DNA of 28,997 nucleotides from an uncultured Christensenella sp. (GTDB lineage Bacteria > Bacillota > Clostridia > Christensenellales > UBA1242). The stretch's first letter is position 1. Every line of letters starts with the position of its first letter. Below, piece by piece: positions 1,097-26,241 of the stretch. The position numbers and the translations under genes were made by a program. The notes beneath the pieces were generated by a model that searched no databases, was not told where the DNA came from, and was given only the letters and a program-made list of their open reading frames with translations. Location of the stretch: assembly GCA_964368745.1 (NCBI GenBank), contig CAYJCT010000001.1, positions 1 to 28,997 on the forward strand, in the 5' to 3' direction.

Positions 1097-4000
1097 TTAA
1101 TAATGATTTAATGTGTATCTTACATAACCCTGAACAGGATTTCCAGGAAGAGGAGGAACTTCTATTATCAAATCTCCACCTTCATCATACCAATTATAAA
1201 CAATAGAATAACTTCCTGCTGAATATTTCAATACATTAACCTTTGCAATAGCGCCACGATTGAAAGGGAAATCGTTCATTTTCACTTCAATTCTCTCCGA
1301 CTGCCATTCTGAGTTCTTATTACAGAAAAATATTCTGTTTATTGAAAGGTCTAATAAGTTGCCCGAGGTTAACGATCTAGTATTTGAGACATTTTGATTA
1401 GAATTTATAAAAAGGTAAGAGAAATAATCTGCAGGAAAGGTTAAAAGTGTTGTATCGGAAGAATTTTTTAGATAACTCAAGTCACCTGATCTATGAACAT
1501 AGTATATACTTCCATCATTTAACTCAAACTCAACCCTGTCAGTAGTTTCTAGTTTAAAAGCAATGGAATAATATTTTAATTCCCAACGCGCATGAACAGT
1601 TCGATTAGATGTTTCATCCCAATTGTTTAAACTATTTCCACTTTCGTCTGTATATTTCTTACCCCCCGATGTAGTTTCATACCAGCCCTGGAATGCATAA
1701 TATTGCATCTCCGGAACTTCAATCTCATACGACTCACCATATATAACCGTTTTTGTAGTGTTTCCGCTTGGAATGGTTCCTCCATTTGGATTTAGGGTCA
1801 AGGTAAACTGATTCAAACTTGCCCGTGCCTGAAGTGTGCGGTTACTTGTGACGGTGAACAAATAACTGGTAGAAGTTGAAACTCTTGTGCCTCCCTCATA
1901 CCAACCATCAAATTCATATTCACTGCCCGCATATTTAACTGCAACAACCGTGTGCGACGCACCATGCTTAACTATTGCACTTATTGGAGAAACGCTTGTA
2001 ATGTAACTTCCTGCTTGTGCAGTAATCGTATAGGTTATTCTAGTGTAATACAATTTCAAAACCAACTCAACGCCGTCTTCGTTTACTGTACCACTGGTGT
2101 TGCTTATTTCTGAATTAAATGTAAATCCAGTTCTGGTCAACGGTGTAACACTCACAAGTTCACCAGGCTGCGCCCATATAGTTTCAGAAGACTTCTCCGT
2201 ATAATTAGAATTGTAAATATTTTCTTCATAAATAATTATTTTATAACTAGTGGTGGCTGTTTCTTTCAACTTCCAAACAGCATAAATTTGGATTGTTTCT
2301 CCGTCTGTGAAGTGTTGTCCTAGACTTTTATAATTAGGATAGTACCAATCCATAATCGTGTTAAAATTTACAGAGACATACAAGTTGGAAGTGTCCACTA
2401 CTCCACCTGCCATCTTAGCCCATCCCAAAAAGTCATACATATCATCATTATTGTGATCAACCAACCTAAACTCATTTGACTTTAGGGTTTGACCATCATC
2501 ATAAACAAAGTTTTGCTGAGACATGTTGCCCAACAACTTTGCATAATAATTTTCCGCATTAGAATTGAAATTGACAATGTAGGTGCGTGGCTCGAAATAT
2601 GCATATAGGTTTACTTCTGATATTGTGCTGAAAACGGTGTAGGTTCCGTCCGACACAAACACATTTGGATGACCGCTTAATGCTCCGTGCGGAATGGTGG
2701 TCCAGTACCCATAACTGGTGTAGCCAAACTTGTAGGTGGATGCAAACTGCTGGCTTTCCCCTTGAGAAATGTTTGAGATGGTTGCGCTGAACGCATCCGT
2801 TTCCTCTTTTTCTGCATTGTTAGACACAAATTTTATAGAAAAATTAGATGTGAAATCTATTTCGTAATATAGATGCGGCGAATAGATATGGTAGACCACG
2901 CCGTCCACTTGTACTTCTGCAAATGCCATCACCCACATGCTACTTTGGTCAAAAGTGAAGCCAGAGTAAGTGTCTTTATTTTGCATTTCTGACCTACTTT
3001 TTGCTCCCGATGAAGAAATGTAACCACCGCCTGCTATGTTTGAAACAGTGTTGTCCCAATAAATACTACTTGTTACAAGCATTCCTGTTGCCTTATGCCC
3101 AATCAGCCCACCTTTGTAATTATCTGCAATTAACTGACCGAAGTTATAAACCTTATTAATAGTAACATCTGTGCTATACCCAATTAATCCGCCCAAATAA
3201 CCTGAAGCATGGCTGCTTTCCACAACACCAATGTTATAACTATTTGTTGCAGTCATTGATGAAGATGAATAGCCCACCAATCCGCCCACATAGTTTTTGC
3301 CTTTTATGCTGGCCTTATTAAAGGACTCCTCAATGGAAACACTTGCATCACTCTGCCCCACAAGACCGCCAGCATAGGCTGAGTTATTTTCATTGGAGGC
3401 AACAATTTCTGCCGTGTTACTCACTTTATCTAAAATTAATTGTGCGCTTGTTTTTCCCACAACTCCGCCCGCAACAGCAGTTACGCCACCCGCTGAGGAA
3501 CTTGCCTCTACCTTGCCATTATTTGCAGAATAAATTGTGCCGTTATTATTTATGGTAAGTGCGCCACTTGTGTGGTTACCCACAATTCCGCCGCCAATCT
3601 GAGTTGCAACAACATCTGCGTTGTTGATAACTCCGCTAAGCGTTGAGCCTGCGCTAGATTCCAGCAATCCAATAAGTCCGCCAGCAACAACGCCTGCAAT
3701 TGTACCACCGTTTGTGCTAACATTTGTGGCAGTAACTTGAGCAAAACTTGTGCCCACAAAAGCGCCAGCACGCGCGGATGTGCAATCAATTTTAACATCC
3801 GTTAGCGTTATGTTTGAGGCGGTTATTATTCCACCATTTTCTGCTCTACCCACCAATGCTGACAGCGATGAAGTAGATGACGAACTGGTGTTTTTCATAC
3901 TGCCAAGAGAAGTGAACTCAACTTTTATATTTTCAACTGTTAAAGTTCCTTCAGATTTTGCAACAAGCGCTGCTATGTTTTGATAGTCTCTTTCAATAAG

Positions 4001-7000
4001 TTTATTTATTATCACAGTAACATTATTTATGTTTGCGTTTTCCGTTACTCCAAACAAACCTAAATTTTCGCCGTCTCTCGACGCGAAAGCGCTCACAGTA
4101 AACTCAATGCCGTTTCCATTAAACCTTCCCTTATATGAAAAGTTTTTGGAACCAAGCGCTATATTTGTGTTCATTTCAATGCTACTAATTTCACTATCGT
4201 CTACATTAACATTCACATTTGGATTTTCATCGTCCACAAAAGGTGATGCTCCCAGCCTCCTATTTTGCAAGAACACAATTTTGCTGTAGTCCGCCTCACT
4301 TGCAAGTGTGTAGTAGTTGCTGCCATTAAGACTAGGTTTTGCAATTGCGAAATAAACAACCTGCGGTCTGCCTGCCACAACTTCAAACACGCTACATTCT
4401 GTAAACTCAATAGGTGCGTCTCCACTGCCCACACTGGTGCCATCTAAAATGTAACTATCAGCATTTATTGCCATTACCACTTTTCCGATTTCATTATTGC
4501 CAATTAAAGCAATGCTGGTGTTGCTTGAAGTGTTTTGAATTTTTGATATTACCAACTCGCTAACCGACTGCACTCCCACAATTGCACCCACCTTTGTTGA
4601 TGTGCCTGCCATATCTGTTATGTCACCATTAAACGCTGACTCATAAATTGCGCCGTAGTTTTCGCCTGCAATTCCACCTACATATTTTGAAGAAGTGTTT
4701 AAAGTTATAGTGGAAGTGGATACTGCACCCTCAATTAGTCCGTTGTTGTAGCCTGCAATACCGCCCACATTATCTGCTCCATTTGAAGCAATTGCGCCTG
4801 TGGACTGAGCAAGGAAAATGCGATTTTTCGCGTAGTAATCAACACTGACTGAAGATGAAATATCTCCTATTCCGTTGTTTAAATAACCCACAACTCCGCC
4901 ACCAAACACACCCGCGACTTGCACATTTCCTGTGTTTCTAACCCAAACAAATATGAAATACAAATCTTTTCCGCCTACGCTTCCCGATGTTGTTTTAACT
5001 TCACCCATAATGCTGGATTCTTTTGCATCGCCCACAAGACCACCCACATAAGAATTTCCCGAAACATCGCCGATGTTATAATCTTGATAAACATGGTCAA
5101 TATAGTAATACTCATATGTCTGCCTGTTTTCAGTATTGGCTGTGTTGTTATTGTTTCTGATGTTTATTTTTTGCGCTTGCCCGAACAATCCGCCCAAATA
5201 ATCACCACCCGACACGCTTCCTTCATTTAGCACTGACTGCACTTCTGTTCTGATATTTGCGTCCGTGTATGTTCCGCCCACAATGCGACCTGCAAGACCC
5301 GCAATATAATTGCCACCACTTACATCTCCGTAATTTTTCCAATTTTCAATGCTTTCAAAACTTCCTGTAATGGTAACTTCGCCTGCAATTCCTGCAACGA
5401 AATTGCCACTGCTTGTGATGGTTGCATTGTTTATTAAATTTGCCGATAAATTTTTCGTGGCAGTGTTTTCTAGTTGCAATTTGCCAACAATTCCGCCCAC
5501 ATAATCGCCGCTTTGGTTTAAGATGTTGCCGTTGTTGGTAATAGTTCCAGAAAAGAAATTGCCACTAAAGTCACTCGAATACTCCGCGTAGCCAACAATT
5601 CCGCCTGCGTAGCCTTTGGAGGAAATCTCAAGGTTATTTGCTAAATTGCTAAACGCAACATTTTTAGCGTAGCCAACAATTGCTCCCACATACTCGTCTC
5701 CGCTCGACGCGTTGAAACCACTCGCTGCCACCGTGCCTAGTGTTAAGTTCGAAATTCTTGCCCCTTCTGCATGTCCGATTAATCCCACATAGTTGTATGC
5801 GATGTTTTCATTTTCCGTCGTTGGATATTTATTGGCATCGAACGCCGCGTAACTTATGGCTGAAAGCCCCGTTATAGAATGTCCGTAGCCTTCAATTGTT
5901 CCTTTAAAGGCATAATCTTCTGCTCCTATTGCCACCCATGCTCTGCCTGCAAAAGAAATGTTGTTCATTATTCTAATGGTTTTGCCCACAAAATCGTAAC
6001 CAAAATAGTTTACCATTCTTGCCACCCACGCCAGTTGAGATGCGTTATGAATTTCCATGATAGTCTCATTATAGTAACCAATTTCTTCAGATCCAAGAGC
6101 AACGGCTTTGGAATAAATTTTTGGATTTTCTTCAGGATTTCCACCTTGATAAGTTGGCAAAGATGAGTGGTCGATCCAATAGTCCATGTTTATCATAAGC
6201 ACGGGATATTCGTTATTGCTTGTGTCTCTACCCCAAACAGATTCCCATGCAAAGCCTGCCCAAGCCTGTTCTCTAAACTCATTTAGTGAGCCTTCTTCTT
6301 CCTTATCGTTCTTATAGTCTGTGGCAGTTATTTTTTCGTCATCAGCGCCGTAAGACACTCCGCCTTTTGAAATCGAATATAGAAAGTTTATATTCTTGTC
6401 AAAGTTTCCTCCACTGTAAACTCCCACAAATTTGTTAATCTGCGTGGAGTTATACGCATAGTTGATACCCAAACTTGTGCCACTCATTTCGCCAATAAAA
6501 CTGCCCACATTGGTGCCTGAAACATTGGCGCTATTTTTAATGTCGTCATTTTCTATTTCGCCATAAACTCCAAGATCCACATAATAGTCAGTGTCGCCGT
6601 TTGAGTTGTAAGAATTTTCTATCACTGTTACACCGCTTGCAATTCCCACAATTCCGCCTGCAACAGATGCTGAAACTCGCCCTTGATTTGCGCTCATCTC
6701 CACTTTTAGTAACGCATTTGCAAGTCCTACAATTCCTCCCGCGAAAGAAGTAATATCTGAATCAGTAGAGTATCCCAAAATGTCGCCATTGTTTTCGCTC
6801 ATGCTAACTGTTAGTGGCGCATTTGCAAGTCCCACAAGACCTGCGCGCGCACCCGCTATTTGAACAGAGTTATATGCGTACTGAGTGTTTAATCCGTCTT
6901 GGTCATTAATTACACTAAACCTTTCAGTTAGCACATTTTCCAACACATAAGTGTTGGTTTCCTGCGCTGTATTTAACACCACATGAGCCACCACACCTGC

Positions 7001-10000
7001 GCTACCAGTGCTGCTAGTGGAAATGATTTTAGCGTTCACCAGTGTCACATCTTTAATGTTCACATTCTCGCCATATCTGCCCTCAATATATTTAACCGCT
7101 TTCACATAGCCAAACAAGCCTGCCACATCTCCGCCAATGCATGCGATGTTTTTAATGGTGAATCCGTCACCGTCAAAAGCGCCTGCAAAAGGATGTGTTA
7201 CTGTACCTATTGGCGTCCATAGTTTGCCTCCAAGGTCGATGTCATTCATTAGTTTTATTACGCCGTTGGTGCTAAATCCGCCACTGTTCACAAGATTTGC
7301 AACATACGCAAGCCCTTCAGCCGTGCCAACTTCATAAACAAAATTTCCATCCACAATTCGTACATTAACCGATTGTGTAAAGTTGCTCCACAGATAGTCA
7401 GCGTGAACATCTTTATCATACCAATTTCCCGTGATTTCTGCCAGCTGCCATCTCAACATTGGCATACCGTGGTTCACTTTTTGTCGGTCGCTCTCGTCCA
7501 TATTTTTGTCTATTGCAAACACAATCCATCTGTTTTCAAAGTCGAGATTTGCCTTTGTGTTAGTACCGTCGAAATAGTTCGACAAGTCGCGCGCTGCGTC
7601 CACTCCCACAATTGCTCCGCTGCTTTTACCATTTGAATCAAAATACTCAAAAGTGTCGTCCGCGTTGTCGTCAAATAAAACATAAACATCTCTTAACGCT
7701 GAGTCGTCCAAACTAACAGGTAACAACTCTGATGTCGACACGATTTGACTCGTTATCAACCTGCCCGCTTTTATACCGCTAGCACTTCCCGTTAGCAACT
7801 TTGAATTTATAAGCAGCCCAGAATTTGTTTGAACTGAGAAATTATTTGCGCTAGCGTAATTTATTATTCCGTTGTTTGTGCCCACAATTTTTGCTATTGT
7901 GGTATTTGAAACGGTGGATATTATTCCGTTGTTTATACCAATCACATTGCCCGAATGCGTTGCTGCAATGATTTTTAGTCCATACACAAAAGACACTTTG
8001 TCCATCGACGAAATCAAGTTGTTGCCAATGCTTCCAAACGATATGCTTAAAGATTGTGCTTCATTGTAATAAATCGACTGACCCTTTAGTTGAATGTTCA
8101 ACTCGGCGCTAAGAGTGATGGACGACCCACCCTCATATATAACCGCTTTTATAACCGCTTCGTCTGCGGGATTGATAAATTCAGCCAACTGAGAATAACT
8201 TGTAGCAATGCTTGGTCGCTGATATGTGCCCTCACTTTGAATGGTTAAAAATAACTCTTCGTTTTCTTCTGTTACCACGCTGTTATCCAACCATATAAGC
8301 AGTGGAAAACTTTTTCCGTTTTCGCTTAGTTTCCAATAACCCGCATCAAATTCGCTTAAAGTATTTTCGTTTGCCAGCATTTCGTCCACGCCCAGCACAC
8401 GACCAAAATTGTTGGAATACGAGTTTGTTTCTGCCAAATATATGGCGTCATCAAACACATCTGCGCTGAAATTTGCACTGTCCACTGCTCCCACAACTCC
8501 GCCATAAAAACTGTCAGATGAGGTTTTAAACAAGTCGTAATAGTCACTATCAAACGCTTGAACTTTGCTTATGGAATAAACATTTTCTATTTTCAATATA
8601 CTGTTTAGTTTATCAGTGGATGTGTGAACAACCGCTCCTAACAGTCCGCCCACTTTGTTTTCGTTATATTCGCCCGTCTCGTTCACAAATCGCACTTTTA
8701 AATCGCCTGTGGAATAGGAATTGGAAATTTCCGATTGAGTGGATGTTGTGGATTCTTCATCCACCGTTAATATGCCCACAAGACCGCCCACAAGATTTTC
8801 TGAGTTGTTGTTATTTTTTACTTCAATGTCTGTGTTGGAAACGCTTGCATTCAGTTTTGGATTTAATGCGTGTCCCAGCACGCCACCCACATTGGAAGAT
8901 GCAAAATCGCCGTCAATAACAACGGCGCCCATCGCCGCAATTTGTGAGATATTTGCATTTTTGCTATATGCCACAACTCCGCCAATGTTTACATTTTCGC
9001 CCGTTCCAGCAAGAGAAATGTTTGCATTTGCATAAAACAACTTGCTTGCTTTCACATTTTCTGTGATGTTTGCCACAACTCCGCCAATGTTAAGCACCGC
9101 TGCATCATTGCTATCCACATTAATATTTCCTACAAATGTTAGTTGCAATATTTCCGAACTGGCTGCATCTATATGGTCGGCAATACCAATCACACCGCCC
9201 ACATTAATCTCACCGATGTTGTTGCTATCAATTGAAATGTCCGCTTCAATGTTTAGATTGGAAATAGCATGCGCTCTAAACTCTTTGTCTGCGTCTAGCG
9301 CGTCCCCAGCCAGTGTGGTTGCCACACTTCCGATTGCGCCGCCAATAAACACATTGTTTTGTTCCGCTTTGGTTTGAGTGTAGGTTATGTTTGCGTCTTG
9401 CACCATGCAATTGGTAACCACGGCAGCATCTTCTGTTGAAGCAAAATTCACATAGCCTGCAATACCACCCACCATTAGGATGTTTTTAATGGTGGAAATG
9501 CCTATGCTTTCACCACCGTTGTCCACGATGATGTCAGAAGAAATCAGTTTCGAGTTTTCTATCACACCTTCATTTTTTCCCACAAGTCCGCCAATCATCA
9601 CGGCGTTTTCGATTGTGGCGCCAGTAGCGACTGCACTAATCTTTGCCTCCACTGACCCATCCACAAACTCCACATTGTCAAAGGTTATTTTTTGTGTCCA
9701 GCCCACAACTCCGCCTGCTCCCACCTCTTTGGTGTGGAAGAGAGAATTGTTTGCGCGCACATGAACATTTGACAGTTTTGCGTTTGTCAACTCACCATGA
9801 ATCTGGTTTTCCATAACTCCCACAAGTCCGCCCACATACACTCCGTCGGAATATTCACCACCAGACTGAACTATTAAATCTTTAACTGCAAAGAGCGTTT
9901 CATCTAACTCTTCGGAATACACAAAATCGCAATTTTCAGCATAGCCTGCAATTGCGCCAACGGCTTTAGAGTTGGTACCACTGATGATAGACTGGTCATC

Positions 10001-13000
10001 TTTTCCATATATATAGATATTTTCAAACAGAGTATTTCTTGCCTCGCCTGCAAGCACACCCACATGCTGCACATTTGATGTGTTAATAGAAGAAACTTCA
10101 ATTTCAAATGATTTGAATGTTGCATTTTCTACATTTGCAAATAATCCAAATGAATTAACGCCATAAATTTCTGCTTCCATACCTGTAAATTTATAATTGT
10201 TTAATTCGCCTGTTTCATAATTCCTACTACTTTGCAAAGTTCCAGTGAAGGGATTGTCTTTTGAGTTTAGAGGAACCCAACTTTCGCTAACCATATCAAT
10301 GTCATTCATAATAATATATGTTGCATCTGGTCGCTCTTCCGTGTTGTCTATTAAATCGGAAATGGTATGTACATAAATAATTTCGGTGGTGGTTTGATAT
10401 TTTATTTTTGGGAAAGGATAGGTGGAAATAAGACTGCGACGAAGGGTGTCTTTCAAGTCTTGAGCGCCGTTCATCACAACTCCGTTCCAGAATTTTTCTC
10501 TCCAGTTGTTGTAAACAACAGAACGCCAATGAGTGGTTGACGAAAACACATTGCCCGAAACTCCCGCCACACTTTCCATTGCCACATCGCCGTTTCCTGC
10601 CACGCGCGCGCCTGTTACATGATTTGTGACGCGCGACGGCATAGTGTCTGCCGTTTCTGCCTGAATATAAACACCCTGCAAAAACTCTCTGATAGTTCTA
10701 AGCGAGCCAAAGTTTTGCATGCGCGAGAATCGATAGATTGTGTCAATCGCCGTTTTGCTGTGGTATATTAAATTGCCATTATCTAAATGGGTTTTTAAGT
10801 CGGTTGCATCAATAAATGTGGCGCCGTTTTCCATTGTTCCAAGATTGCGCAAGCCCGAATAAAATATGTCTCCCACCGAGTATGTGCCAAACGCTGTGGT
10901 CACTTGATAGTAAATATACATTTCTTTTTCGGTTATAAGGTCGCCCGAATAAGCGTAATTTTCGTTGTTAAAAGTATACTCTGTGGAGTTTATAATTTGA
11001 TATATAAATGTAACATCCTCGCTAGCAAACCCTAGCCCAAATTCTGCTAAACTAAGCACTTCCTGTTCAGTTAGAATTTTACCTGCATCATAGTAGGTGC
11101 CAGCAACAATATCAATGTCAATTCTTCTGTTTAGCATGTAATATTTTCCGCTTTCCGTATATCTTGCATTTTGCCCCGTCTTTTCTTCCCACCTAAACTT
11201 ATTGGTGTTGGCGTTTCCAATTTCATCCAGCGCTTGGTTAGTGGAGCCTGATTTGTAGGTGTACATAAAATAGATGTTTTCGTTTTTCACGCGTTGAGAA
11301 ATGTCGTTGCCCACTCCGCTAAACCATTCGTCAAAATTCTTTCCTAGCACGGTGGAGTTTCCAATGAACGACCCTATTTGTGCAATGCTTGCGTCGATGT
11401 TATAATTTTTTCGGTTTATCACTTTGTGAGGCGCTTTCCACATGTTTGCGCTAACTAATGAACGCACATTTACTTTATTGCTGCCCACCACTGCAGTCGA
11501 CATATCACTCATGTCTCCTTGATTTGCGATGTGGTAGATATATTGTGCCGTTGCATAATTTTTACTGTTACCCTCGCCACTTTCTAGCGCATCGCCATCA
11601 AACATGGTTTGCAAACCAACACTGCCGCCATACGCTACAAACGACCAAACGCTTGCGGTGGTGTAAACATTTTCTAAGTTCACGCCCACACTCAGCCCCA
11701 CAAGACCGCCAGCATATTTTGCGTTTATGTTTGCAACATCCACGCGGTTAAATGTGAATGTCAATTTTGAATTGTGAGAAATACCCACAACACCACCCAT
11801 ATAATGAGGGTTTCCGTCGTATAGAGATGTTGCCTCCGTTATGGTGGATGGCAAGTTTAAATAGAAATTTGCTGTGGTTTTGTTGGTTGGAGTAATGGCG
11901 TCGATCTGCCTAATAATCTCGTCATCAATGTCTTTTTGATTTTCGTTTTCCACATAACTTCGAGTAATGGTGCCCACGCTATGCCCCACAAGTCCACCTG
12001 CCACTGCAGACGCAATCAAACGCATATCTGGTGACACCAAAAGTTTTGAGTCGTTTAGTATGGCTTTGCTGCCCACAAACCCAAACAGTCCGCCCACCAC
12101 TTCGCCTTGAATGGAAATTGCACCGCGCACCACATTGCCACTGGTGTTAACATCCGCCTCGCTTCCCTCCACCGCGCTGGTGTTGAGAATGCCCGCAATT
12201 CCGCCCGCATAAGACACGGCTGAAACATTATCGCCCGTGAACAACATAAATTCGTGAACAATATATCTGCCCATGTCGGGGTTAAATTCTTTGTTTATTG
12301 GTCGAGAACTAGAGTAGGTGTTTGCGGTGTTGAACAGGTTGGCTTTCACTGAAACCGAACTGTCGATGTTTTGAATTAAACTGGTGCCTGTAACCAATCC
12401 TGCAAGACCGCCCACTGCGTTTAGCCCCGACACTACCACCTGCTCACCCGTGATTGTGATGTTGTAAATATAGGCGCTTTCAATTATACCTGCAAGTGCG
12501 CCCACATATTTCACGCCCGAACCTTTGATTTCTTCCACCTCGATGTTTAGGTTGCGCACATTGCCAATTTTACCTGAACTATCTTTATAAACACGAGAGA
12601 AAATTCCCAGCGTGTCAATTTTTTTGCCGTCAATTGAACCTAATTCCGCAATCAATTTCAATTCTTCAATGGTCATGCCGTTGCCTTCCAAATCGCCCGA
12701 AAAACTAATATTGTAGGTTTGTGGAGTGATGCCTTCTTCCTCAAATGAAATATCTTTTACCATACGCAAGTTACGGTTTTGGGTGTCGATTGTGGCCTTG
12801 CCCTCGCTATCTATTTGCGCCACAAATCCGTTGAAATCAAATGCAGAGTCAATGATATATGGGTTAAGCACGCTTGCGCCATATGCAATGGAAATGCCTT
12901 TCATGTTTTCCAGCACGCTACTATAACTATATGAACTGCTACTATTTGGGTCCACTTTGTTGCGGGAGTTTATTGCGGTTATTAGCACCGACAAAATAGT

Positions 13001-16000
13001 GGTTGAGGTGATAGTTTCATCTGCAATTGTGGTTTGCATGGTTGCCACAGATGTGCTAACACCACTTTCCGCAAAAGCCAACACCATGTCATCTGCCAAC
13101 CTAACGGAAGTAAACTCAGCAATCTTTGCCGCAGCATATCTAATTGGGTCGTTACCCTCATAAGTGCCGTCGCGAAGTTCCTCCAAAATTTTGTATGCAG
13201 CGTCCACTCCCATTTGCTTATAAAGCGTTTCAAGCACATTAAAAATACTGTCGCCCGTGTTAAGCGGCTGAATAAAGTTTGCATATTTCACCGACATATT
13301 TTTTAGGTTTGCACTAACTAATTGAGGCGCGCCCACTATATAGTCGGAATGTCTGAAATAACTGTTTGCCACCTGTTGTTGCAAAGGACTGGTTACGGAA
13401 GACATAAACCAAACACTTTGCGTTAAAAGTGTGGAATTTATTTCATAATCGGAATTAAACGCAAATGTGCCAAATGTGGAATACTGCCCAAATTGCACAG
13501 CGTTTACCGTTGATATTTCCTCGCCCGATTTGTCTGTTAAAAAGTCGAGATAGTCATTACTCACCACAAGTTCACGCTCTTCACCCTCTCCAATTCCTAG
13601 AAGTATTTTTCCAAATTCTTCTTCTAGTTCTTCATTGCTGTAGGAAGAAAATATAATTGTGTAGTCGTTTTCATCCACCTTTAAATAGAAACTGTTTTCA
13701 ATTGAACCCTCGCCTTGACTGCTGTTTGCCAAGAATGCAGATGAGTATTCCAATTCTTTTGGAATGGAACTCATGGTGTAGGTGTTGGAAATTTTGCCCG
13801 TGTTAAAATAAGCAAACCCTGCGTTGTAGTCGCCGTTTACCAAAATGTTGGTGTAGGAGTTTGCGATTGTGCCTTTGTTGTCATAAACAAAGCCGGTTGC
13901 CGACAAGTCGGAAGTAATAACCGAACCGAACCTGCGCGCGTTTATAATATCGGAGCCAATTGTGTAGTTGTAGCCAATAAAACCTTGTAAAATTTCATCA
14001 CTCAATCCCGTTGTCGATTCGCGAGTGTGTGCGTCGTCGAAGGTATGAACGCGACCCAACACATAACTCAAATTGATTTCGCCACCCAAATTGTTAAATG
14101 CAACCAGACCTGCCGTTGCAGTGGCTGCAAGAGACATCGACCTGAAATTTACCACATTGCCGTCTTTAAAATAACTGGAACTAATTTTGCCGTTATTTTC
14201 GCCCACAAAACCTGCCACATATGAGAGACCCTGCACGGTTATGTTTTCCACATTACTGTTAGTGATGTAGCCGTCGTTTAATCCCACCAGTCCTGCAATG
14301 CGCACATCAGTTATGTTTGCGTCAGCGCTGGAAACGGAAACTCCAAATGAGGTTAGCGTTCTGTTGGCGTCGGATAGGCGCGTGGAGTTTTTGATGTAGG
14401 TTTCATAGTACATTTCTTTTCGGTCTTCATACTCTGCCTGATTTATTTTACTTAAGTTATAGTAAAGCAAATCATCGCGCTCTGTTCGATATCTGTCAGC
14501 ATTATTTACCACAATTGCGTTTGTGATAACGCCACGATTTATGCCCGCTATCACGCCCGCACGCACGCCCTGCAAACTGCCAAGCACAACTTCCACATCG
14601 GCGCTTGTGCGCAATATTTCTCCATTTGCATCAAGCGCTTGTTCTCTTAACACATTTTCATGCGGAACCAATTCCACAATAATATTTTTTAATGTAGTCT
14701 GCTCAGCAACCTCGCCAAATAGCCCCACATTTTTTGTGGTAGAACTAGCGGAAAAATCGTCAAAACTTTTAATTCTAATCACATAGCCGTTGCCGTCAAA
14801 ACTTGCAATTGGTGTGTTTATTGGCGTGTGATATTCAAGTTCAATGTCGGCAAGCAAAATATAGTGCGTGTCAGCACTCATGCTCAAAAACTCTTCCTTT
14901 GTGTAGATGGGGCGCGGATTATGCTCGTCGGAATATTGATAGAAATTAAACCCAAACTCGGTGGTTTTTAAGTATGTGAAATCACTCTCGTGGTAAGAAG
15001 CCTCACTGGATATGTAAACTCCTGTTCCGCTATCACTTTCGCCATAAGAAATTATGGTTTGCGCCATAATGCGATCGGACGCATTTAGCAAATTATTTCT
15101 CAGCGTTAGCACTGCATAGTTGTGTCGAACAAGTTGATCATTTTCATTTTCTATAAAATAATTTTTGCCGTTCGCTATCACAAAACTGTTATAGGTTTTG
15201 TTTTTAGAAAGGTTGGAATAAAGGTTACCACTTTTTAAATACCATGTGCCTGTTTTGTAACTTTCCTCCCCTATTTCCACATCGCCAAAAATCATAGAAA
15301 TGTCGTGGTTTTGCCCGTACTCTCCATATAGCCCCAGCGACGAAATTTTTGCTTCCATCTGCCTTATTTCTTTTTGAATGCTCTCCACTTGAGCAGATGT
15401 CACATACATCAAGTCTGTGGAATAAGTTGCGTTAATTTTTATTAGCAGTGGATATTCCTGATTGAAATTTCCCACCATGTTTCCGTCCACCACATTTTCC
15501 ACCGCAATGCTGTCCACAATAAACATCGCCGGCCTAAACACAATGGACTTTGTGGTTTCGTATTTCCTGCCCAAAATGGTGCGGTAAACAGTGAGTGTTA
15601 TGCTAAAATCTTTACCTATTATATCCTCGTTATATTTCAATATAAAAGAATACTGTGAGTTTCGCCCGTCCACACCCACTCTTTTTATGTTGTTAAATAC
15701 ATTGTCTCCCGACTGCGTCGCCAAATAGTCGTTGCTGCCCGTTGCAATAACGCCGTTCACATCAGATAGCACAAAGTTTCCGTCAATAATGCCATCGGTT
15801 TCCACATCAAAAACTACTTCTGTTCCCATAGCAACAGGAGCATAAGTTAGCCCTTTGTACGACATGTTTAGTCTTGGAGTAAGAGCCGGCACAATTGTTA
15901 GGGTAGATGAATGCACCACTCCAAAAGATGACCACCTGATTATCAACACAAAGTTTTGTTGGTTTTCGTAAAAAGTTGGCAACAATGTTTTAATATAAAA

Positions 16001-19000
16001 ATTTCCGTTAAAGGCATGCTGTGTTTGCCCCGACATCTGATAATCTAAACTAATACGCGACAGCCTAATTCCTCTGCCGTTTGCAAGAGGTGTGGACAAC
16101 TGACTGATGCTGGTATAACTGCCTGCAAAAATCAAGTTGCTGTGCACACTGACATCGGAATATGTGAAATAGTTTGCCACCAGTTGTTCCAGCCCGATAG
16201 CAACACTTCCGTTTGGCACCGACTCCACTTCCAGCCAGTCAATCTGACCATACTCAGGATAAAGGTTTATGTTTAGCAACCCCGGGTATCCCACCACCAA
16301 TGTGTCGGAAATAAACGACTGACCCACGGTGTAGACAGTGTTCACTTTTCCCTCTCCCACATCGTAGGTTTGCATCATCACATCGGAGTAGTGTTTGGTG
16401 TAAATTCTCTCCAATCCCTGCGGCGTAATTTTTAGGTTAAAGGTGGCGCTCACAATTTTGTTTTCATTGCTAACCACATAAAAATCAAGCGCAATATTGT
16501 TGACCTCGTTCATGTCAAAAAGACTGTCTTCCTGCACATTGATTTTGAAATAATATTTTTTGAACTTAAGTGTGTGGCTTCCATTGTTATTTGCAGGATC
16601 AAACTCCACATCCTCATCGCTGAAATACAGCACGCGTTCTAATTTGATTTGATATTTTCCAAATGTATAATAGTTGTTGAAGTTAGCACTATCATCACTT
16701 ATTTCGTACATAAAAATCGGGTTGCCGTCCGCGTCTAACTTTTGTACCTCCACATTGTTTAAGCCAAGCAATTTATAACTGCCATCCCCTCCTTCAATTG
16801 CAAAATAGTTTCCGTCTTTAATGGTTAAATAAAGTTTTGCAGTTGCATCGTCCGTTAGCACCGTTGCCACCACTTCGCCGTCTATTAACGGTGTGGTTTC
16901 TTGATTTTCAAAATTGGTGGTCACATTGTAGGTGCCGTTTACCACGCGCACATTCATCACTTTTCCAAGACCAGTTATGTAGCCGTTTGCGGTTTCCAAT
17001 TTAATCATATAACCGTCATCACCGTCTGACACCACATTTTGAAACAACGCCTTTTGATTGATGTTGTTGCCATAAACAAACGGCACTGCCACCAACCTCG
17101 ACATTTCATCCTGAGCCTCGTTGCCCTGAACATAGATGTCGCTAATAGTCGCTATGTCCATAAAAATCAAATACTGTCCGTTTGGTTCCACAGAATATGT
17201 AAATGATTTGCTGTTTATCTGAAACTTGCTGTGAATGGCAGAGGTGTTATCGTGATAAATTCCGCCGCTATCGTTCATCAGATAGAAACGCACGCCTAAG
17301 TTAAAATTGGTGGATTTTGCAAGCGCAATGTTTGCATAAGTTCCTGCAATGGTGTTAATAGAAAAACTGCCAGAAACATCCAGCCTAATTTTTTCACTGC
17401 TACCTTTAACAACCTGAAGCACACTATCTTGTCCCAGTTCTGTCAACTCATCCTGCCCGTTCTGAATGAAACTTCTGTTAATGGAAAAATTGTTAAAATT
17501 ACTTCTCACATTAAAAGTGATTTCCACTTTTAAGTCGGGATTAAACAAAGATGAAATAGTCATAACCGCAGTTCCTGTGGACTTCACTAGCACATTCGTC
17601 TCGCCCCTGTCCGACACAAACTCTATGATACCAGAATTGGTGGAAATGTTTAGTTTGCTATTTTTCAGATAAGGCGGAATCACCACAAGATTTAAGATGT
17701 CGGAAAGTTTGTAGGTGTTTGCCGCGGCAATCTTTTGGTCCAGCACCGCAGAATATGTGCGCTCGGTGTTAGAAATTGCTTTGTTGTTGTCAAAGTCATA
17801 AAAAGCACCAATCTTATTCAACTTGCTATCTACTTGTGAATAAGAGAGCGACACTACATCGTCAAGATAAGTTATGGTGTTGTTTGCAAAAACTTGTTCC
17901 TGCCAAACCAACAAGTTGTCATAATTACCCGTAACCTGAACATCGGACGGAGGCAGATCCACAATCAATTCCAAACTATCTACACTCGGATTGTTGCCAA
18001 ATGCAATTGGCATACCGTCGTTCACTAATTCATTATAATATTGGTCGAAGTTTTTGATGTCGTAGTCTTCAACCGCCTCTATTGGCACAAACACAACTTC
18101 ACTTGTTGCAACATTGATTAATTTATAGTGAGTAAGCACACCCGTGATACCACCCAGTTCGTTGTAGCGATTATAATCGGTCAGCAAATAATCGCCCGCA
18201 ATCTCGCCCTCAAGCGTAATTATTCCTAAAAATCCGTTGTCCTGCATTTCCTCAACGGTGTACATATTAAATATGAAATTTCCACTCCACTCACTGGTTT
18301 TTTCGTAGTAGTTGTTAATGCTGTCGTAGTGAGAGGCGTTGGAGTTATAATAACTCACTTCCACAGGGCTAAGGGAATATCTTTGCAACTCATCATTAAG
18401 CAAATAGTTAAAATCCCTCTCGGTTATAAGCAACATTATATTGCCACCCACCACATAGCGATAGTATGGCACATTGCCCTCTAAAAAGTCTCCGCCCTCG
18501 AAGTTACATATTTCAAAATTCGAAAGATAAGGAGAAAGTATTGCATCATCAAAATACTGATACTGGGCATTTAGCAAGTTATATATTTTAATAAAGATTC
18601 CGTCTTCATTTTCTTCATAGTAAAAAGCCTGCGTAGTAAGTTTTTTTGCTCCTTCTTCTGTGAATGTATATTTTGTGGTTTTCACAAAGTTTCCGTTTAT
18701 CTTTGCCGAAAAATATGTTTGATAACCAATGTAGAAACTGTTTGCCGAAAGCAGCGTGCTAGTCTCAAACTCATAGCCACTCGAAACCACCGTTTCGTCT
18801 TCTAACAATATAAAACTAGCGCGACCGTTAATAAAGTCATATTCGGATTTTTCATAAAATTTACTTTCATCTTGCCACACAAATTTCGTAGGCACACCCT
18901 CGTGTGTGCCTCTATACGACACATCAATTTTAACCAACCTGTCTTCATCCAAGTTTTCGTGACTGCGTTGAAAATATTGAATAATATAATTAATTTTGTT

Positions 19001-22000
19001 GTACTCTTCAATCAAATTTCTAAGCAGTTCATATTCGTTAAAACCATCACCATCAATAGTGTAATTAACTTCTTCTTGCAATTCGTGGTTGTCATCGTAT
19101 TTTATGACTCCCGCAAAACTATTAATTTTTTCAATCATGTACTCAAGATAAGTCGTGGTCTCATCCACATACTGTCCGTATGAATAGTTTTGAATACCAC
19201 TTGCTTCGCCGTATGTAAGTTCATTAAAGCGGAGACGGATTTGGTTTGCCTGCGACACAAAATAGTTGGTGAATATATTGTTCACATAATTCACCCACTC
19301 CTTGTTGTTAATAAATTCTTTGTCGATTGTTTGACTGCCCGAAATTCTCACAAATTTTTCATAAGTAGCATCGTGAAACTGAGCAGGAGTGTAAATATTA
19401 AAAGGCAGCGCCATCAGCCAATCCACTAAAGCATCTGTATTGAAATCAGCAGAAAACTCAAAAACTTCCACCCTTCCAGTGTCTTGATCTGGCTCATCAA
19501 AATGTGTTTTAAACACATTCACATATTCCAGCAACTGCGAAATAGCATAGTTTTCATACACATTTTCCACCATGGCATCAGCAAGCAAATACATTTGGTT
19601 TTCAGTTAGATTATTTGTGCTTATTTTATCTGCAAAATCACTGTCCAGCAAATCGTGTTCGTTTACAATTGCTATGAATAGTTGCATGTCGATGCTGCCG
19701 TCATCCAAAATGGCCACAACTATATCTTCAATGTCTATGTGCTCAAAATCTTCTAAAAAGTAATCGTAATCGTTGTCGTCAATGGAATCCAACATTGATG
19801 CGTCGGTTAGCAAATTGTATGATTGCACCAACTTTGCAAGCAGATAATTTTTATATATAACGCTTGCCACTTCCACAAATGAAGAGGTATCATAATCATT
19901 ATTCTCAATTAAAATACTACTTGCGCTGTCGCCATAAAACGCTAACAAAAATGTATTGTTTTTGATAGCATTCAACAACTCCACACTCGTTGCTCCATTT
20001 AGCGATCCTTTTTCTTCTGACTGCAGCATGTTTGTCAACTTATCTTTTGCCGAGATAAACATTGCATTTATAAAATTGTTTTGCATACTCTCCAGCGTGA
20101 TAGAGGCATAATACAATCTTTGGTAATAAGAACCCACAACCTGTCCAGTGCTTCGCCATCCATACGCATTTGTGTTAATCCATAGCACCGTATCGGCAAA
20201 AGTCACGATTGATGTAGACTCACTTACAGCCAACACCTTGTCAAACTTTTTCGCGTTTTCCACGACTTTTGCTTCCACATCCGCAAAATATTCCACATAC
20301 AAATTGTTGATAATTCCAATTAGGGCTTCATAGTTATCATAGAACTCGTCGTCTTCTTCCACTTCAATTTTTTTACTAAAATTGTTGTTAATATCTGCTA
20401 CCACATCGCGATATTTTTGGTTGATAACTGAAATGTCGCTTTCTCTGACTTGCAATCTGTCTATTTTATTGTCATCTTCTAGCAACAAATTCACTTTGTC
20501 AATCAATACATTTAACTGTTGCGAAAGCATGATGTTGTAAATCACATTGTTGAAGGTGTCGGTCAACATTGCAATTGCCAACTCATCTCCAATGTACTCG
20601 TCCTCTTCCATTAAATTAAGTTCGTATCCGCTTTCCAAAAAAATGTATTGCGCAATCAATTGCGGAATGATACCTTCATAATCGGGCGCCACTGAGTAGG
20701 TTTTTCCTGAAAAAGCATTTAGATAATCAAGCATACTTAAGTATATTTCACTTTTATCCATATACTCAAAATTGCCAAAGTCTCTGTAGGTTTCAAGCAA
20801 ATCAAAAGCCACTAACTCGCTGTAAGACAAAAACTTACTCAACTGAATGTTGTTAATATAATTCCTGTCAATTATGGCTGCAAACAACTTTAGATTGTAA
20901 TCAGAAAAGTTAATCGACTGCAGCACGGTTTTTTCTAAGTATTCAACATGTTCGTAACTTCTCACCCCAAAAACATCTATGTAACCAAGGTTATTTAGCG
21001 CCGCCACCAAATCGCCCAACTCTACCAGTTTAGAGTTTTTGACTTCCAAAATTTCAACATACTCAATTTCGTTAGTGTAGATGTTAGAAACAATGTCGCT
21101 GCCAAAAACATAGAAGTTGTTCACATATTCGCTTGGGTCGTTGGTTTGCATATTTAGTTTTAGCAAAGTGTATGAAGTTTGCAAGTTATAAAAATCAAAC
21201 AGATTTCCGTCGCTGTCGATAAAGTTTACCAAATTTTTCTTTTCGATTTCCCACGAAAAGATGATGTCGGCAAGGCTCACATTTTCCGCGTCAGTCACGC
21301 CCACATACGACAGTTTATAGTCTATGTTTGTGATGTCGCCAAAGAAACCACCCACGCGCTGGTTGATAGAGTTAGATAAATAAACAATCGGCTCTTCCGT
21401 TTGGTAATAAACAACATTGCCAAACACCGCCGCGTTGTTAACTAAAATGGAACCCGAAAGCGTTCCCACTTCCAGTATGCCACCAAAAATTCCACCAATA
21501 AAAATCCCTTCTTCCTCAACTGTATCAAGAGTGCTGATTGCATTTTGATTTATGTTGATTTTAATGTACGCGTCTGATATAAGGGCGTTGTTGACTGCCC
21601 CGAAATAGCCGCCTGCAAACTGTTGGTTGGTTTGTTTTGCAATAAACACAATGTCTCCAAAATATTGATGAGAAGACGAAAAGTTGTGCGCCACTGTTTT
21701 ATTTTTATTGTCTTTGCTGATTTCGCGGTTGAAATAAGAATAAACCGAGTTTTTATAAAGTTTGGATGCAAATCTATTAGAGTTATTCTCACCGCCCGTT
21801 TCCACGGTATAGTCCGTAAAATTAACGCCCGCAATTCCACCCAAATAGTTTTCGCCTGCAATTGCTGTGTTTAGATAACTGGCAGTATACTTGCCGTCCA
21901 TCATCTGCACCTTATTGCCCTCCAGCACATTTAGTGGCGCAGAAGAAGGCATCTGCGACAAAGCAAATTGCGTCAAGTCAGAAAAATATCTACTCTCGAT

Positions 22001-25000
22001 GTTTGCGCCCGCAATTCCGCCCAAATAGTTTCTACCCACAATGGTGGGGTTAGAAATTGAGTTTGTGATGCGCGCCATATTTATGCCCGCAATTCCACCC
22101 GCAAAGTTGTTTGCAAAAATAACTGACTTTGCGGTTACATTATTAATGGAACCTAAGTTTATGCCCACCACGCCGCCGATAACATACTTGTCGCCAATAA
22201 CGCTCATGTCTTTGGTTTGCAAAAATGATGCATTAATTATTGCACTAACCGACATGTTTGACATACTGCTAGAAATTTGTGATGGCAAATTAGAGTACCA
22301 AATATTTGCAAAATTTTCGTATTTTTCTTTTAATGCTTCGGATGTAGACTGCTCTACAAGTAGCCCCACAAGTCCGCCCACAACTAGTTTAGTGTCGCTT
22401 AACTCGTCAATAGTGTCAATGGCAATGGATGCAAAACTGTCGGCAAGAATACCGTCTTTTTGATAACCCACAAGTCCGCCGATAAACCCGAAAATATTGG
22501 CTGAAGAATTCCCCGAAAAAATCAGCCCCCTGCTCTTTAATGCAATGTCATTAATTTTTGCGCCATCGTAGCCCGCGATGCTATTACCGTCGTCCACCGA
22601 GCAGTTTAGTATCTCACTATTTTCTGCCCTGCCTGCAAGTGCGCCCATAAACACGCCATACTGTGTGGACGCATTCACTGTTAGATAGGCATTAGCGCTG
22701 ACGGAGACATAAACATTTTTTAGTTTTATGTTATACAACTTTGCTCCCACAACATTTGCAAAAAGTCCGCCATAGTAATTAAAAGTATCCGTCTCCATAT
22801 TTGTGCGAGTGATTAAGTTATGAATACTATATTGCACAATGTCTCCATTTGGAAAAGTAAATCTGCCGTCGTATGTTCCCGTGAAGGCATTTTCCTCGCT
22901 TCCAATTGGCGCAAAGTTTTCCGGCAAATAAATATTTGCCGTTTGCACATAGTTGGAAGACAGTGCGTCGTTCACCCTAAGCAAATCTTGATAGGTGGCA
23001 ACCTCGTATTTCACACCGATGCCGTCCGCCACGCGCACTGTAATAACTTCCACAACCCTATAACTGTTTTGATTAACATGACTGCGACTATCCACAGAAT
23101 AAAGATAAATAGAATACTCCGGCAGTTCATAAGGTGCCACTATCAGTTCATTTATTCGCACGGTTACCGTTTTATTTATATTGTCTACAATCGCGCTCAC
23201 ATTTGCGGTGGCGCTAGGCACGGCAATGATGTTGTCGTTGTGCACTCCTGCAGGATTAATTGAAAACGCAAAAGTCTTTTCGTTTTCTGATTTGTCGGTA
23301 TCAAACACCAATTTTTCGTCCAGAACATTTTGATAAACCATGTCGCGAATATCAAAAGTCATGGTGTTGTATGCAAGGTCGGCGCTTATGCTCTCCACTC
23401 GCTTTGCATCCACCACCGAAAAACTCACGCGGTCGGAATAAGTGTTGCTAATTGATTGTCCAAAAAAGTTATTAAACTGCTGCACTGCAAACCCTTCCAC
23501 ATAAAAGTCAAAAGACATTTCTGCGTTAATGTCGTCTTTAATGCTGTTTGTTTCCGCCCAAACCAACAATCTTTTACTGTCGCCACTCATCTCCCAACAA
23601 ATTTTGTGACTCCAGTTATAATCCTCATCTTTCCATTCTCCTTTGGTAATGCTCTCGCCTTGGGCATTTTTCTGGGGTATAGTAATCGATCTGGAACCGT
23701 AGTAAATTTTCCAATAAATTGTAGACGCAGCAAAAGTCTGAGAAATAGTCGGCAATATTTCCATGGAAATTTCTGCTTTGCCGTTTAAATCAAAGTCCGA
23801 CGGATTCACTCCGTCGCTGTAAATGTTAAGTGTATTTTTTGAATATATGTTGTTTGTTTTTGGTGTCAGCCTAATGTGCGACACAGGCTCCACCACAATC
23901 ACCACAAACTCAAACTCCAGCGTGTGCTGCTCGGTGCTGCTCACTCTGCTGGTTAGTACCACTGAAATGATTACTCTCCCGTCCTGCCTTGTAGAAATGT
24001 TTTTAGCGCTAAGAGTGTTGGTTTGAGAATCAAACGAAACGCTATTGCTCTCACTTGACCTAATCGAGAGGCTTAGCCCATTTGGCAAAATTTCATATTT
24101 AGTTGGTGTAGCGTTGTCGCCAAACAACACATTTATTACAATGGTTTGATTATCGCCCCGTTGCGCAGTGAAAGGCTGTTCCACGCGGTCCACGCCCACG
24201 GCGTCTTTCGACACAATTTTACTGTCGCACACATGGTTTTTAAAAGTCAGCCAAACGCTCTCGCCCGTTATATTAATATAAACCTGCACATAAATCGTAA
24301 GCACATATCCGTTAGGCGCCACAACTTCAATGCGGCTTCTGCCCACTTGATCGAGACGCGTGGAAATATTGATCCCTGTAACCAATCCATTTTCATTACT
24401 AATTAAAGAGATGGTTTCATTGCTGATAACATCCGCGCCTTCCAGTGTTGTGACCCTAACCGTGAAACTCTCGTGTGTTAAATTACTATAGTCTCCCGAT
24501 TCGCCTAACCAACTCGCTGCAATTCCTTTTTCCTTAAAGTCATACACCAAAGTATCATTCACGGACATAAACACCTTGTCGTCAATGGCGTCGCCCGAAG
24601 AACTCCATTTAACTTCGCCCAGTACGCCAATCAAGTCCACCTCAGCCAAAACTTCATCGTTTATTGCCGATGTCACAACAAGTTTGGTGCCCTCGTTAAT
24701 TTCCACCTCATTATTTTGTTTTCGCAGCAAAAACCTATGCGGATTAAGCGTGTTGTCCACCACCATCATTGGCGATGTTATTACATTTCCCCAAGTGTCG
24801 GAAATTAGAATGTTGCTGAGTTTTTCGCCCTCGGCGTCCACCACAGCAAATTCCACCTTTTGGTTGTATAGCGTGCCGTGCGTTCCAAACACCTGCACAT
24901 AAAAAGGTGTGCCTAGTTGGTTGGTGCTATAGTTGGCAAACAACACCAAGTTCTCTGCCAACAACCCGCTGTTTTCCACATTATAGTAAGAGTTCTCATT

Positions 25001-26167: not shown

Positions 26168-26173
26168 TCTCAT

Positions 26174-26179
26174 TCCCTT
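26174..26179 (-). promoter_or_regulatory. Shine-Dalgarno of the giant gene
   Basis: AAGGGA lies 6 nt before ATG 26167. Confidence 0.6.
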
Positions 26180-26241
26180 AACAGATATGTTTTGTAAAGC
26201 AATCAAAAATATTTATAGTTTTTAGATACTTTAATATATAT

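What the first reader, a model, noticed from the sequence alone, without database searches (positions are those of the whole stretch)
18002..21080. ~1,000-aa acidic, largely helical region inserted inside GLUG module 1, at a site reused for inserts in other modules
Seen: module 1 runs to its last strand (SNIYTN, ~21080) but its cap appears only at ~18050-18002 (NFDQYYNELVNDGMPIAF). That cap matches the module-5 cap (VNHGMPML), even at DNA level: 18006-18026 versus 7458-7478 is 20/21 identical. Between them lie ~690 aa of Asp/Glu-rich heptad-like helical sequence (~21030-18960) and ~300 aa of Tyr/Phe-rich sequence. The same position holds ~50 acidic residues in module 2 (~13680-13520), ~240 aa in module 3, and almost nothing in module 4. 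Inference: a conserved insertion hotspot lets side domains branch from the beta-helix stalk, and the 1,000-aa passenger may be a novel domain (helical bundle, spacer or cryptic effector).
Basis: partly seen in the sequence, partly recalled or inferred. Interest (0 to 1): 0.72.

Follow-up and report, generated by a model that had tools for sequence, protein, structure and literature searches.

The report
Orphan insert in giant surface protein
An 8,369-residue surface protein of an uncultured gut Clostridia bacterium carries about 750 acidic, probably helical residues, spliced in frame into a loop of its first beta-helix module, that match nothing in any database searched; this is a clear case of domain insertion, a known kind of event, and its function is unknown.

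Summary
The literal observation holds. SNIYTN lies at aa 1707-1712, the cap-like NFDQYYNELVNDGMPIAF at aa 2719-2736, and the DNA match to the module-5 cap is 20/21.

The "1,000-aa insert" is two things. The Tyr/Phe-rich ~260 aa plus the cap (aa ~2460-2736) are ancestral. 17 of 24 congeneric orthologs examined keep a homologous beta-rich domain and cap motif at this place.

Only aa ~1711-2459 (window ~18830-21076) is extra. The distance between two flanking anchor motifs is 815 aa here and 53-96 aa in orthologs. On a confident ortholog model the site maps to a beta-hairpin turn 8 residues after the last-rung motif.

The ~750 aa found no relative in 1.84 billion protein representatives, 300 genomes of the family, Pfam, NCBIfam, PDB sequences, the ESM Atlas or JGI metagenomes. 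Codon usage matches the host gene. There are no internal repeats and no heptad signal above shuffles.

The fold is unresolved (single-sequence AlphaFold2, pLDDT 33).

Split-chain folding gave weak support (0.46, best control 0.00) for the cap segment docking on module 1.

The analogous sites in modules 2 and 3 also vary in length among orthologs, so the hotspot idea is partly supported.

This is a new variant of a known kind. Earlier scan notes describe the same family of giant genes on other DNA, but not this insert.

The parts
1097..26206 (-). Giant ORF of 8,369 aa (P0001). It has a signal peptide with a lipobox-like FFGC at aa 34-37, Ig-like regions, eight GLUG-type beta-helix modules and C-terminal Listeria-Bacteroides repeats.
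21077..23089 (-). Module 1 beta-helix, aa ~1040-1710. It includes anchor motif A (FYNLQTSYT, aa 1672-1680) and the last-rung motif NNFYVFG (aa 1696-1702).
   Evidence: The GLUG Pfam hit is 25.4 bits against a cut-off of 20.5. It shows 25-33% identity to module 1 of 17 orthologs. The ortholog model matches the S. pneumoniae IgA1 protease beta-helix at Z 27.
18830..21076 (-). Species-specific orphan insertion, aa ~1711-2459, with boundaries good to about 10 aa. It is acidic (net charge -81) and poor in Gly and Pro.
   Evidence: The distance from anchor A to anchor B is 815 aa here and 53-96 aa in orthologs. No homolog was found. Codon usage is like the rest of the gene. The coding frame has 0 stops and the other five frames have 28-82.
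19502..21070 (-). Part of the insertion predicted helical, aa 1713-2235 (low confidence).
   Evidence: Secondary structure comes from a model with pLDDT 33. Pro is 0.4% and Gly 3.1%. There is no heptad signal above shuffles.
18830..19501 (-). Part of the insertion predicted mixed alpha/beta, aa 2236-2459 (low confidence).
   Evidence: The only Pfam match is DUF4286 at 21.7 bits, below its cut-off of 25.8.
18053..18829 (-). Ancestral Tyr/Phe-rich beta domain, aa 2460-2718, containing anchor motif B (NSFYIGY, aa 2489-2495).
   Evidence: It aligns with the same region of 17 orthologs. The ortholog model is beta-rich here with pLDDT about 70-90.
17999..18052 (-). Module-1 cap (closing) motif NFDQYYNELVNDGMPIAF, aa 2719-2736.
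   Evidence: The motif is conserved in the 18-sequence alignment. It matches the module-5 cap at 20/21 nt. Residues 2732-2737 lie in the predicted interface with module 1.
17948..17974 (-). Conserved strand LELIVDLPP, aa 2745-2753, leading into the Ig-like region.
   Evidence: Residues 2748-2752 lie in the predicted interface.
7454..7477 (-). Module-5 cap VNHGMPML, aa 6244-6251.
13514..13663 (-). Module-2 acidic stretch, aa 4182-4231, beginning 4 residues after the last-rung motif NSFYLKV. Its presence varies among orthologs.
   Evidence: It is aligned in G050, G001 and G012. In G015 and G045 it is replaced by 14-19 aa.
10769..11194 (-). Module-3 variable stretch, aa 5005-5146, beginning 22 residues after the last-rung motif NIYFMY.
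   Evidence: It is replaced by 16-51 aa in G050, G012 and G045, and is aligned throughout in G001.

Best explanation
What it is. A giant lipid-anchored surface fibre protein gained, in this species' lineage only, an in-frame block of about 750 residues (aa ~1711-2459). The gene family is conserved but evolves very fast in a genus of uncultured gut Clostridia with ~1.2-Mb genomes.

Where it sits. The block lies in the turn of a beta-hairpin 8 residues after the last-rung motif of beta-helix module 1. It is upstream of an older ~260-aa beta-rich domain and of the module's closing cap motif. The two ends of the block therefore meet at one point on the stalk.

How it most likely works. The block is most likely displayed as a folded accessory domain hanging from the side of the stalk. 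It is acidic, mostly helical and not a coiled coil. The older beta domain and the cap still close module 1.

What is shown and what is inferred.
- Shown: the insertion, its site, its uniqueness and the homology of the cap.
- Inferred: that it folds, that it projects sideways, and that it acts as a lineage-specific surface contact or spacer element.
For: - Orthologous giant ORFs of 6,000-10,500 aa occur in 29 of 40 congeneric genomes.
- In 17 orthologs the order is module 1, then a beta domain of 119-228 aa, then the cap, then the LIVDLP strand. The distance between anchors A and B is 53-96 aa in them and 815 aa here.
- An ortholog region folded with a 26-row alignment gives pLDDT 84.6 and pTM 0.90. 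The site maps between strands 693-697 and 704-708 of that model, where pLDDT is 77-81 (mapping).
- The ortholog beta-helix matches S. pneumoniae IgA1 protease at Z 27 and 3N6Z at Z 26.
- The insert has no stop in its own frame and 28-82 stops in the other five frames.
- Its synonymous codon usage is like the rest of the gene: chi-square 48 on 36 df, against 37-70 for control windows of the same size. GC3 is 0.405, within the gene's range.
- It has 12% aromatic residues, GRAVY -0.05, Pro 0.4% and Gly 3% in the helical part. This fits a folded helical protein and not a disordered linker.
- In the split-chain fold the cap docks on conserved rungs. The score is 0.46 against a best control of 0.00. 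In calibration 58 of 80 solved complexes and 2 of 110 mismatched pairs reached the mark, and a pass at 0.60 or under is weak.
- An independent manure metagenome holds identical short contigs, one of them inside the insert at 18845-19191.
- PMC7695701 notes that other beta-helix stalks, such as H. influenzae IgA1 protease, carry domains that leave and return to the helical core.
Against: - There is no confident structure of the insert (pLDDT 32.6).
- The protein language model barely recognises it. Recognition was 1161-1191, where 91% of known families reach 2300.
- With no second sequence, purifying selection on the insert cannot be tested.
- The open frame may be kept only because 5,900 downstream residues must be translated.
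- No read or contig bridges either junction in an independent sample.
- The docking support is weak. The partner chain had pLDDT about 41, and the three runs shared only 15-23% of contacts.
Confidence: 0.6

Rival explanations
1. Tolerated filler. The block is a neutral or nearly neutral passenger captured from some coding sequence. It has no function of its own and stays open only because a stop or frameshift would remove the 5,900 downstream residues.
For: No homolog was found anywhere. Language-model recognition is very low. Model confidence is low. No conserved motif, HExxH or Cys pattern is present. The whole gene family evolves very fast, at 25-34% identity within a genus.
Against: A 2.25-kb addition to a costly surface protein in a 1.2-Mb genome would probably be lost if useless. 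The composition is that of a folded protein and not of low-complexity filler. Codon usage is fully adapted to the host gene, so the block is not recent.
Confidence: 0.25
2. Ancestral domain. The block was present in the common ancestor of the genus's giant gene and was lost in every other sampled lineage.
For: Orthologs are so diverged that the order of events cannot be rooted. Length variation at the analogous sites of modules 2 and 3 includes apparent losses.
Against: All 24 orthologs examined, including the closest one (G050, 33% identity in module 1), have only 53-96 aa between the anchors. No trace was found in 300 genomes of 58 genera. This reading needs many independent clean deletions.
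Confidence: 0.08
3. Assembly artefact. The contig is a chimera, and the block belongs to another gene or organism in the metagenome.
For: The genome is a fragmented assembly of 220 contigs. No independent contig bridges either junction.
Against: Both junctions are in frame, and the two flanks are adjacent in orthologs. Codon usage is the same as in the rest of the gene. Identical fragments of the insert and of the downstream domain occur together at about 2x depth in another metagenome. No other source of the sequence exists in the genome or in the databases.
Confidence: 0.03
4. First reader's version. One ~1,000-aa heptad-rich helical passenger sits between the last strand and the cap of module 1, at a hotspot reused in other modules.
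For: The cap is displaced and homologous to other caps. Modules 2 and 3 show length variation at the analogous place.
Against: The C-terminal ~260 aa are an ancestral beta domain. There is no heptad signal. No ortholog has a large insert at the module-1 site.
Confidence: 0.04

Closest known systems
N-terminal beta-helix of M26 IgA1 metalloproteases (S. pneumoniae IgA1P, PDB 6XJA/6XJB/7UVL) and BACOVA_03286 (PDB 3N6Z)
   Same: Module 1 has the same beta-helix fold. The ortholog model gives Z 26-27 at rmsd 2.4-3.1 A over about 260-275 residues. GLUG motifs are present.
   Different: There is no HExxH and no protease domain anywhere in the protein. The S. pneumoniae helix is described as small and without protruding elements (PMC7695701). 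Here the helix is followed by a beta domain, and in this species by a 750-aa side block.
Side domains on autotransporter beta-helix stalks (H. influenzae serine IgA1 protease, as described in PMC7695701)
   Same: The topology is the same. A domain leaves the beta-helical stalk and returns to it at one point (the site is inferred).
   Different: The protein family, secretion route and helix type are unrelated. There is no sequence or tested structural similarity. The side block here is far larger and an orphan. This is a likeness in how it works, not membership.
Giant GLUG beta-helix lipoproteins of uncultured gut Clostridia noted earlier in this scan (e1-2132535, e1-2164348)
   Same: The host protein is of the same kind: about 8,000 aa, lipid-anchored, built of Ig-like and GLUG modules, fast-evolving, and often one of a pair of giant genes. 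Second giant ORFs were seen in G015, G045 and G001.
   Different: Those notes do not describe a species-specific orphan block inside a module.

Membership tests
GLUG-type beta-helix module (Pfam PF07581; fold of the M26 IgA1 protease NTD) | GLUG motif matches above Pfam's cut-off | tested here: met
   PF07581 scores 25.4 bits (cut-off 20.5) in aa 850-1750 and 26.1 bits in aa 5250-6150.
GLUG-type beta-helix module (Pfam PF07581; fold of the M26 IgA1 protease NTD) | Right-handed beta-helix fold superposable on solved GLUG helices | tested here: met
   Tested on the ortholog L018 model (pLDDT 84.6), not on this protein. Z is 27.2 to 6XJA and 26.0 to 3N6Z.
GLUG-type beta-helix module (Pfam PF07581; fold of the M26 IgA1 protease NTD) | The C-terminal closing motif belongs to the module, not to the next domain | tested here: inconclusive
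   The motif is conserved and homologous to the module-5 cap. The split-chain fold gives weak support, 0.46 against a control of 0.00. No coordinates were available to inspect the ortholog model.
M26 IgA1/Zmp metalloprotease | HExxH zinc site and protease domain | tested here: not met
   There is no HExxH in the 8,369 aa and no peptidase Pfam hit.
Coiled coil | Heptad periodicity of hydrophobic residues over 28 or more residues, above chance | tested here: not met
   The maximum score is 0.70 against a mean shuffle maximum of 0.67 (95th percentile 0.80). The share of high-scoring windows is 0.014, the same as in shuffles. This is a home-made score, not COILS or DeepCoil.
Intein | Hint domain, an N-terminal Cys/Ser nucleophile and a C-terminal His-Asn followed by Cys/Ser/Thr | tested here: not met
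   There is no Pfam hit and no HN[CST] in aa 1700-2480. The only Cys between aa 1203 and 5425 is at aa 2567, outside the insert.
Mobile element or recent horizontal acquisition | Deviant codon usage, flanking direct repeats, or transposase or integrase genes | tested here: not met
   Codon usage is like the host gene. The longest shared run at the junctions is 8 nt, against a shuffle 95th percentile of 9. There are no family hits.
Domain insertion into a beta-helix stalk (autotransporter-like side domain) | Both ends of the inserted block meet at one loop of the stalk, and the stalk fold is kept | tested here: inconclusive
   The site maps to a hairpin turn of the ortholog model. The protein itself could not be folded with the block in place, because module 1 through the cap is about 1,700 aa and the limit is 1,200.

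The most novel reading that the evidence does not exclude
The ~750-residue block is a new, independently folding domain, possibly a new fold, captured from an unsampled source. It gives this one species a private binding or effector activity displayed from the side of its giant surface fibre.
Probability: 0.2. Interest if true: 0.6.

Novelty: new variant of a known kind. Interest (0 to 1): 0.4.

Why it matters
The family of giant, enzyme-less surface fibres is probably how these tiny-genome gut Clostridia touch their surroundings, and it evolves very fast.

This case shows one way such fibres change. A very large orphan block can be spliced into a hairpin turn right after the last rung of a beta-helix module without removing the module's closing elements. 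The same kind of site flexes in length in other modules as well.

The case also gives a defined, expressible 750-residue sequence with no relative in about 1.8 billion protein families. That makes it a candidate for a new fold or for studying how orphan protein sequence arises. It does not open a long-standing question, and no function can yet be assigned.

Tried and rejected
Searches with the insert that found nothing:
- Word-index search among giant proteins.
- phmmer against 1.84 billion representatives.
- The window's own genome, where only the insert itself matched.
- 40 relatives.
- 300 genomes of the family. Three matches at E about 0.005-0.008 were found, about what chance gives over 300 genomes.
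- PDB sequences, NCBIfam and Pfam in pieces. The only Pfam match was DUF4286, below its cut-off.
- ESM Atlas, three tries.
- JGI metagenome contigs.

Other attempts that led nowhere:
- AlphaFold2 on the insert alone gave pLDDT 32.6. I did not use it for fold search.
- No internal repeats were found, and no similarity to the rest of the protein or to orthologs.
- Profile comparison of the ancestral beta domain with the insert and with the module-3 stretch gave probability 0.1%.
- The junctions carry no direct repeats above chance.
- Literature searches on GLUG found nothing relevant.
- Sequencing-run search gave one weak holder. Its contigs do not bridge the junctions.
- My first reading of an extra ~100-aa insert at the same site in L023/L025 was rejected. 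A better match to anchor motif A puts their anchor spacing at about 96 aa.
- Intein, coiled coil and mobile element were rejected (see the membership tests).
Full report
**The gene.** The window is one whole contig of a 1.18-Mb, 220-contig, 90.5%-complete genome. Window 1097-26206 on the minus strand is one open frame of 8,369 aa. It starts with a signal peptide and a lipobox-like FFGC (aa 34-37). Pfam sees only weak GLUG motifs and a C-terminal Listeria-Bacteroides repeat. There is no HExxH. The neighbouring genes are sleB and ypeB (spore germination) and a hexapeptide transferase. The nearest named relatives of the transferase are uncultured Clostridia, Eubacteriales and Christensenella gut MAGs.

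**Check of the observation.** All quoted strings and coordinates are correct. The 20/21-base identity between the module-1 and module-5 cap codons is one of only five such 21-mer pairs in the 25-kb gene. The other four are GLUG cores, and codon shuffles mostly give none. The stretch is acidic (D+E 17.6%, net charge -81) and poor in Gly and Pro. A heptad scan does not exceed shuffles, so 'heptad-like' is not supported.

**Orthologs split the 1,000 aa in two.**
- The Ig-like region after the cap finds giant ORFs of 6,000-10,500 aa in 29 of 40 congeneric genomes, at about 25-34% identity.
- I fetched 24 of them.
- In 17 the order is module 1, then a Tyr/Phe-rich beta domain, then a cap motif of the type YY.Y....G.P..F, then the LIVDLP strand.
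- Two anchors bracket the site. Anchor A is F.N..SSYS (aa 1672 here). Anchor B is NSFYIGY (aa 2489 here).
- The A-to-B distance is 66-78 aa in 13 orthologs, 53 in the closest one (L012), about 86-96 in three others, and 815 here.
- From anchor B to the LIVDLP strand is 119-228 aa in orthologs and 260 here.
- So aa ~2460-2736 is ancestral, and only aa ~1711-2459 (window ~18830-21076) is extra.
- Seven orthologs of a second clade carry a shorter, different region before a recognisable cap.

**The site.** An ortholog segment (L018: module 1 plus beta domain plus cap, 908 aa) folded with a 26-row alignment gives pLDDT 84.6 and pTM 0.90. Its helix matches S. pneumoniae IgA1 protease at Z 27 and 3N6Z at Z 26. 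Aligning our flanks to L018 places the extra block between strands 693-697 and 704-708 of the model. That is a hairpin turn with pLDDT 77-81, 8 residues after the last-rung motif NNFYVFG. The region after it has long paired strands, which suggests a beta-sheet domain and not more helix rungs. I could not inspect the coordinates.

**Does the cap belong to module 1?** I folded module 1 (aa 1021-1712) and the beta domain plus cap (aa 2456-2757) as two chains, each with an alignment.
- The result was 'weak support': score 0.46, best of three controls 0.00. In calibration the mark was reached by 58 of 80 solved complexes and 2 of 110 mismatched pairs, and passes at 0.60 or under are weak.
- The confident contacts on the partner chain are NSF (aa 2489-2491), the cap (aa 2721-2722, 2729, 2732-2737) and IVDLP (aa 2748-2752).
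- On module 1 the contacts fall on residues 410-414, 465-473, 525-527, 570-573 and 655-661 of the chain. These overlap its invariant non-GLUG columns.
- The partner's own fold was uncertain (pLDDT about 41), and the three runs agreed poorly.
- Together with the motif homology, this favours the cap being part of module 1, but it is not proven.

**The block itself.**
- No relative was found by any search.
- It has no internal repeats and no junction repeats.
- It is not an intein, transposase or protease.
- Its own frame has 0 stops, and the other five frames have 28-82.
- Synonymous codon usage is indistinguishable from the rest of the gene. The lower GC (0.363) comes from amino-acid composition: GC12 is 0.342 and GC3 is 0.405. 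The block is therefore not recent foreign DNA.
- Single-sequence AlphaFold2 failed (pLDDT 32.6). Its secondary structure is helical to about aa 2230 and mixed after that.
- The composition (12% aromatic, GRAVY -0.05) is that of a folded protein.
- A manure metagenome holds short contigs at about 2x depth that are identical or nearly so to window 17188-19191. One lies inside the block (18845-19191). None bridges a junction.

**The hotspot claim.**
- In module 2, the acidic stretch at aa 4182-4231 begins 4 residues after the last-rung motif. It is present in G050, G001 and G012 and is replaced by 14-19 aa in G015 and G045.
- In module 3, aa 5005-5146 is replaced by 16-51 aa in three orthologs and kept in one. 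A multiple alignment shows about 80-190 aa between the last rung and the conserved pre-cap motif.
- Within this protein, the distance from the last-rung motif to the cap, counted by hand, is about 30, 48, 62, 62, 78, 128, 285 and 1,035 aa in the eight modules.
- So this stretch is a recurrent place for length change. A very large insert at the module-1 site, however, is unique to this genome.

**Comparison with what is known.** Domains that leave and return to a beta-helix stalk are known, for example in H. influenzae IgA1 protease as noted in PMC7695701. The host protein family has been noted before in this scan on other DNA.

**Verdict.** This is a real and unusually large orphan domain insertion. 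It is a new variant of a known kind, and its function is unknown.

Noticed in passing
G015:C3:539769-542615, G045:C1:277596-285530 and G001:C10:9471-12770 (not fetched as loci): Orthologous genomes carry a second giant ORF (5,427, 5,471 and 9,109 aa) that also matches modules 2 and 3. In G015 and G045 it lies about 15 kb from the first on the same contig. The giants therefore come in pairs. In this window the contig ends before a partner could appear.
   Followed up: no
window 17188-19191: A 2025 manure metagenome (run X1) holds short contigs at about 2x depth that are identical or nearly so to this gene (one A>G at 18276). The species, or a very close strain, therefore lives in livestock waste.
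   Followed up: partly
L013-L016, L020, L024, L027 (second clade of orthologs): These orthologs lack the NSFYIGY domain. Between the last rung and a recognisable cap they carry a shorter, different region. In L020 it has a canonical 'SPTEEKINKLAGF' pre-cap motif and ends in YPIPF. The tail of module 1 has therefore been remodelled more than once in the genus.
   Followed up: partly
window 1097-26206: Only five 21-mer pairs with at most one mismatch exist in the 25-kb gene. All are in frame and lie in conserved motifs. The eight modules are therefore old duplicates with no recent gene conversion.
   Followed up: yes
aa 1430-1434, 1485-1493, 1590-1593 and 1675-1681 of P0001 (window ~21164-21919): The most conserved non-GLUG columns of module 1 (motifs of the type SNKVQF, YNSV.SY and SSYSL) coincide with the residues predicted to touch the cap and the NSF motif. 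This hints at a conserved docking face inside the molecule.
   Followed up: partly
window 18830-21076: The protein language model's recognition value for the insert (1161-1191) is far below the 2300 that 91 in 100 proteins of known families reach and only 9 in 100 shuffled or reversed sequences do. This is unusual for 750 residues kept inside a conserved gene.
   Followed up: no
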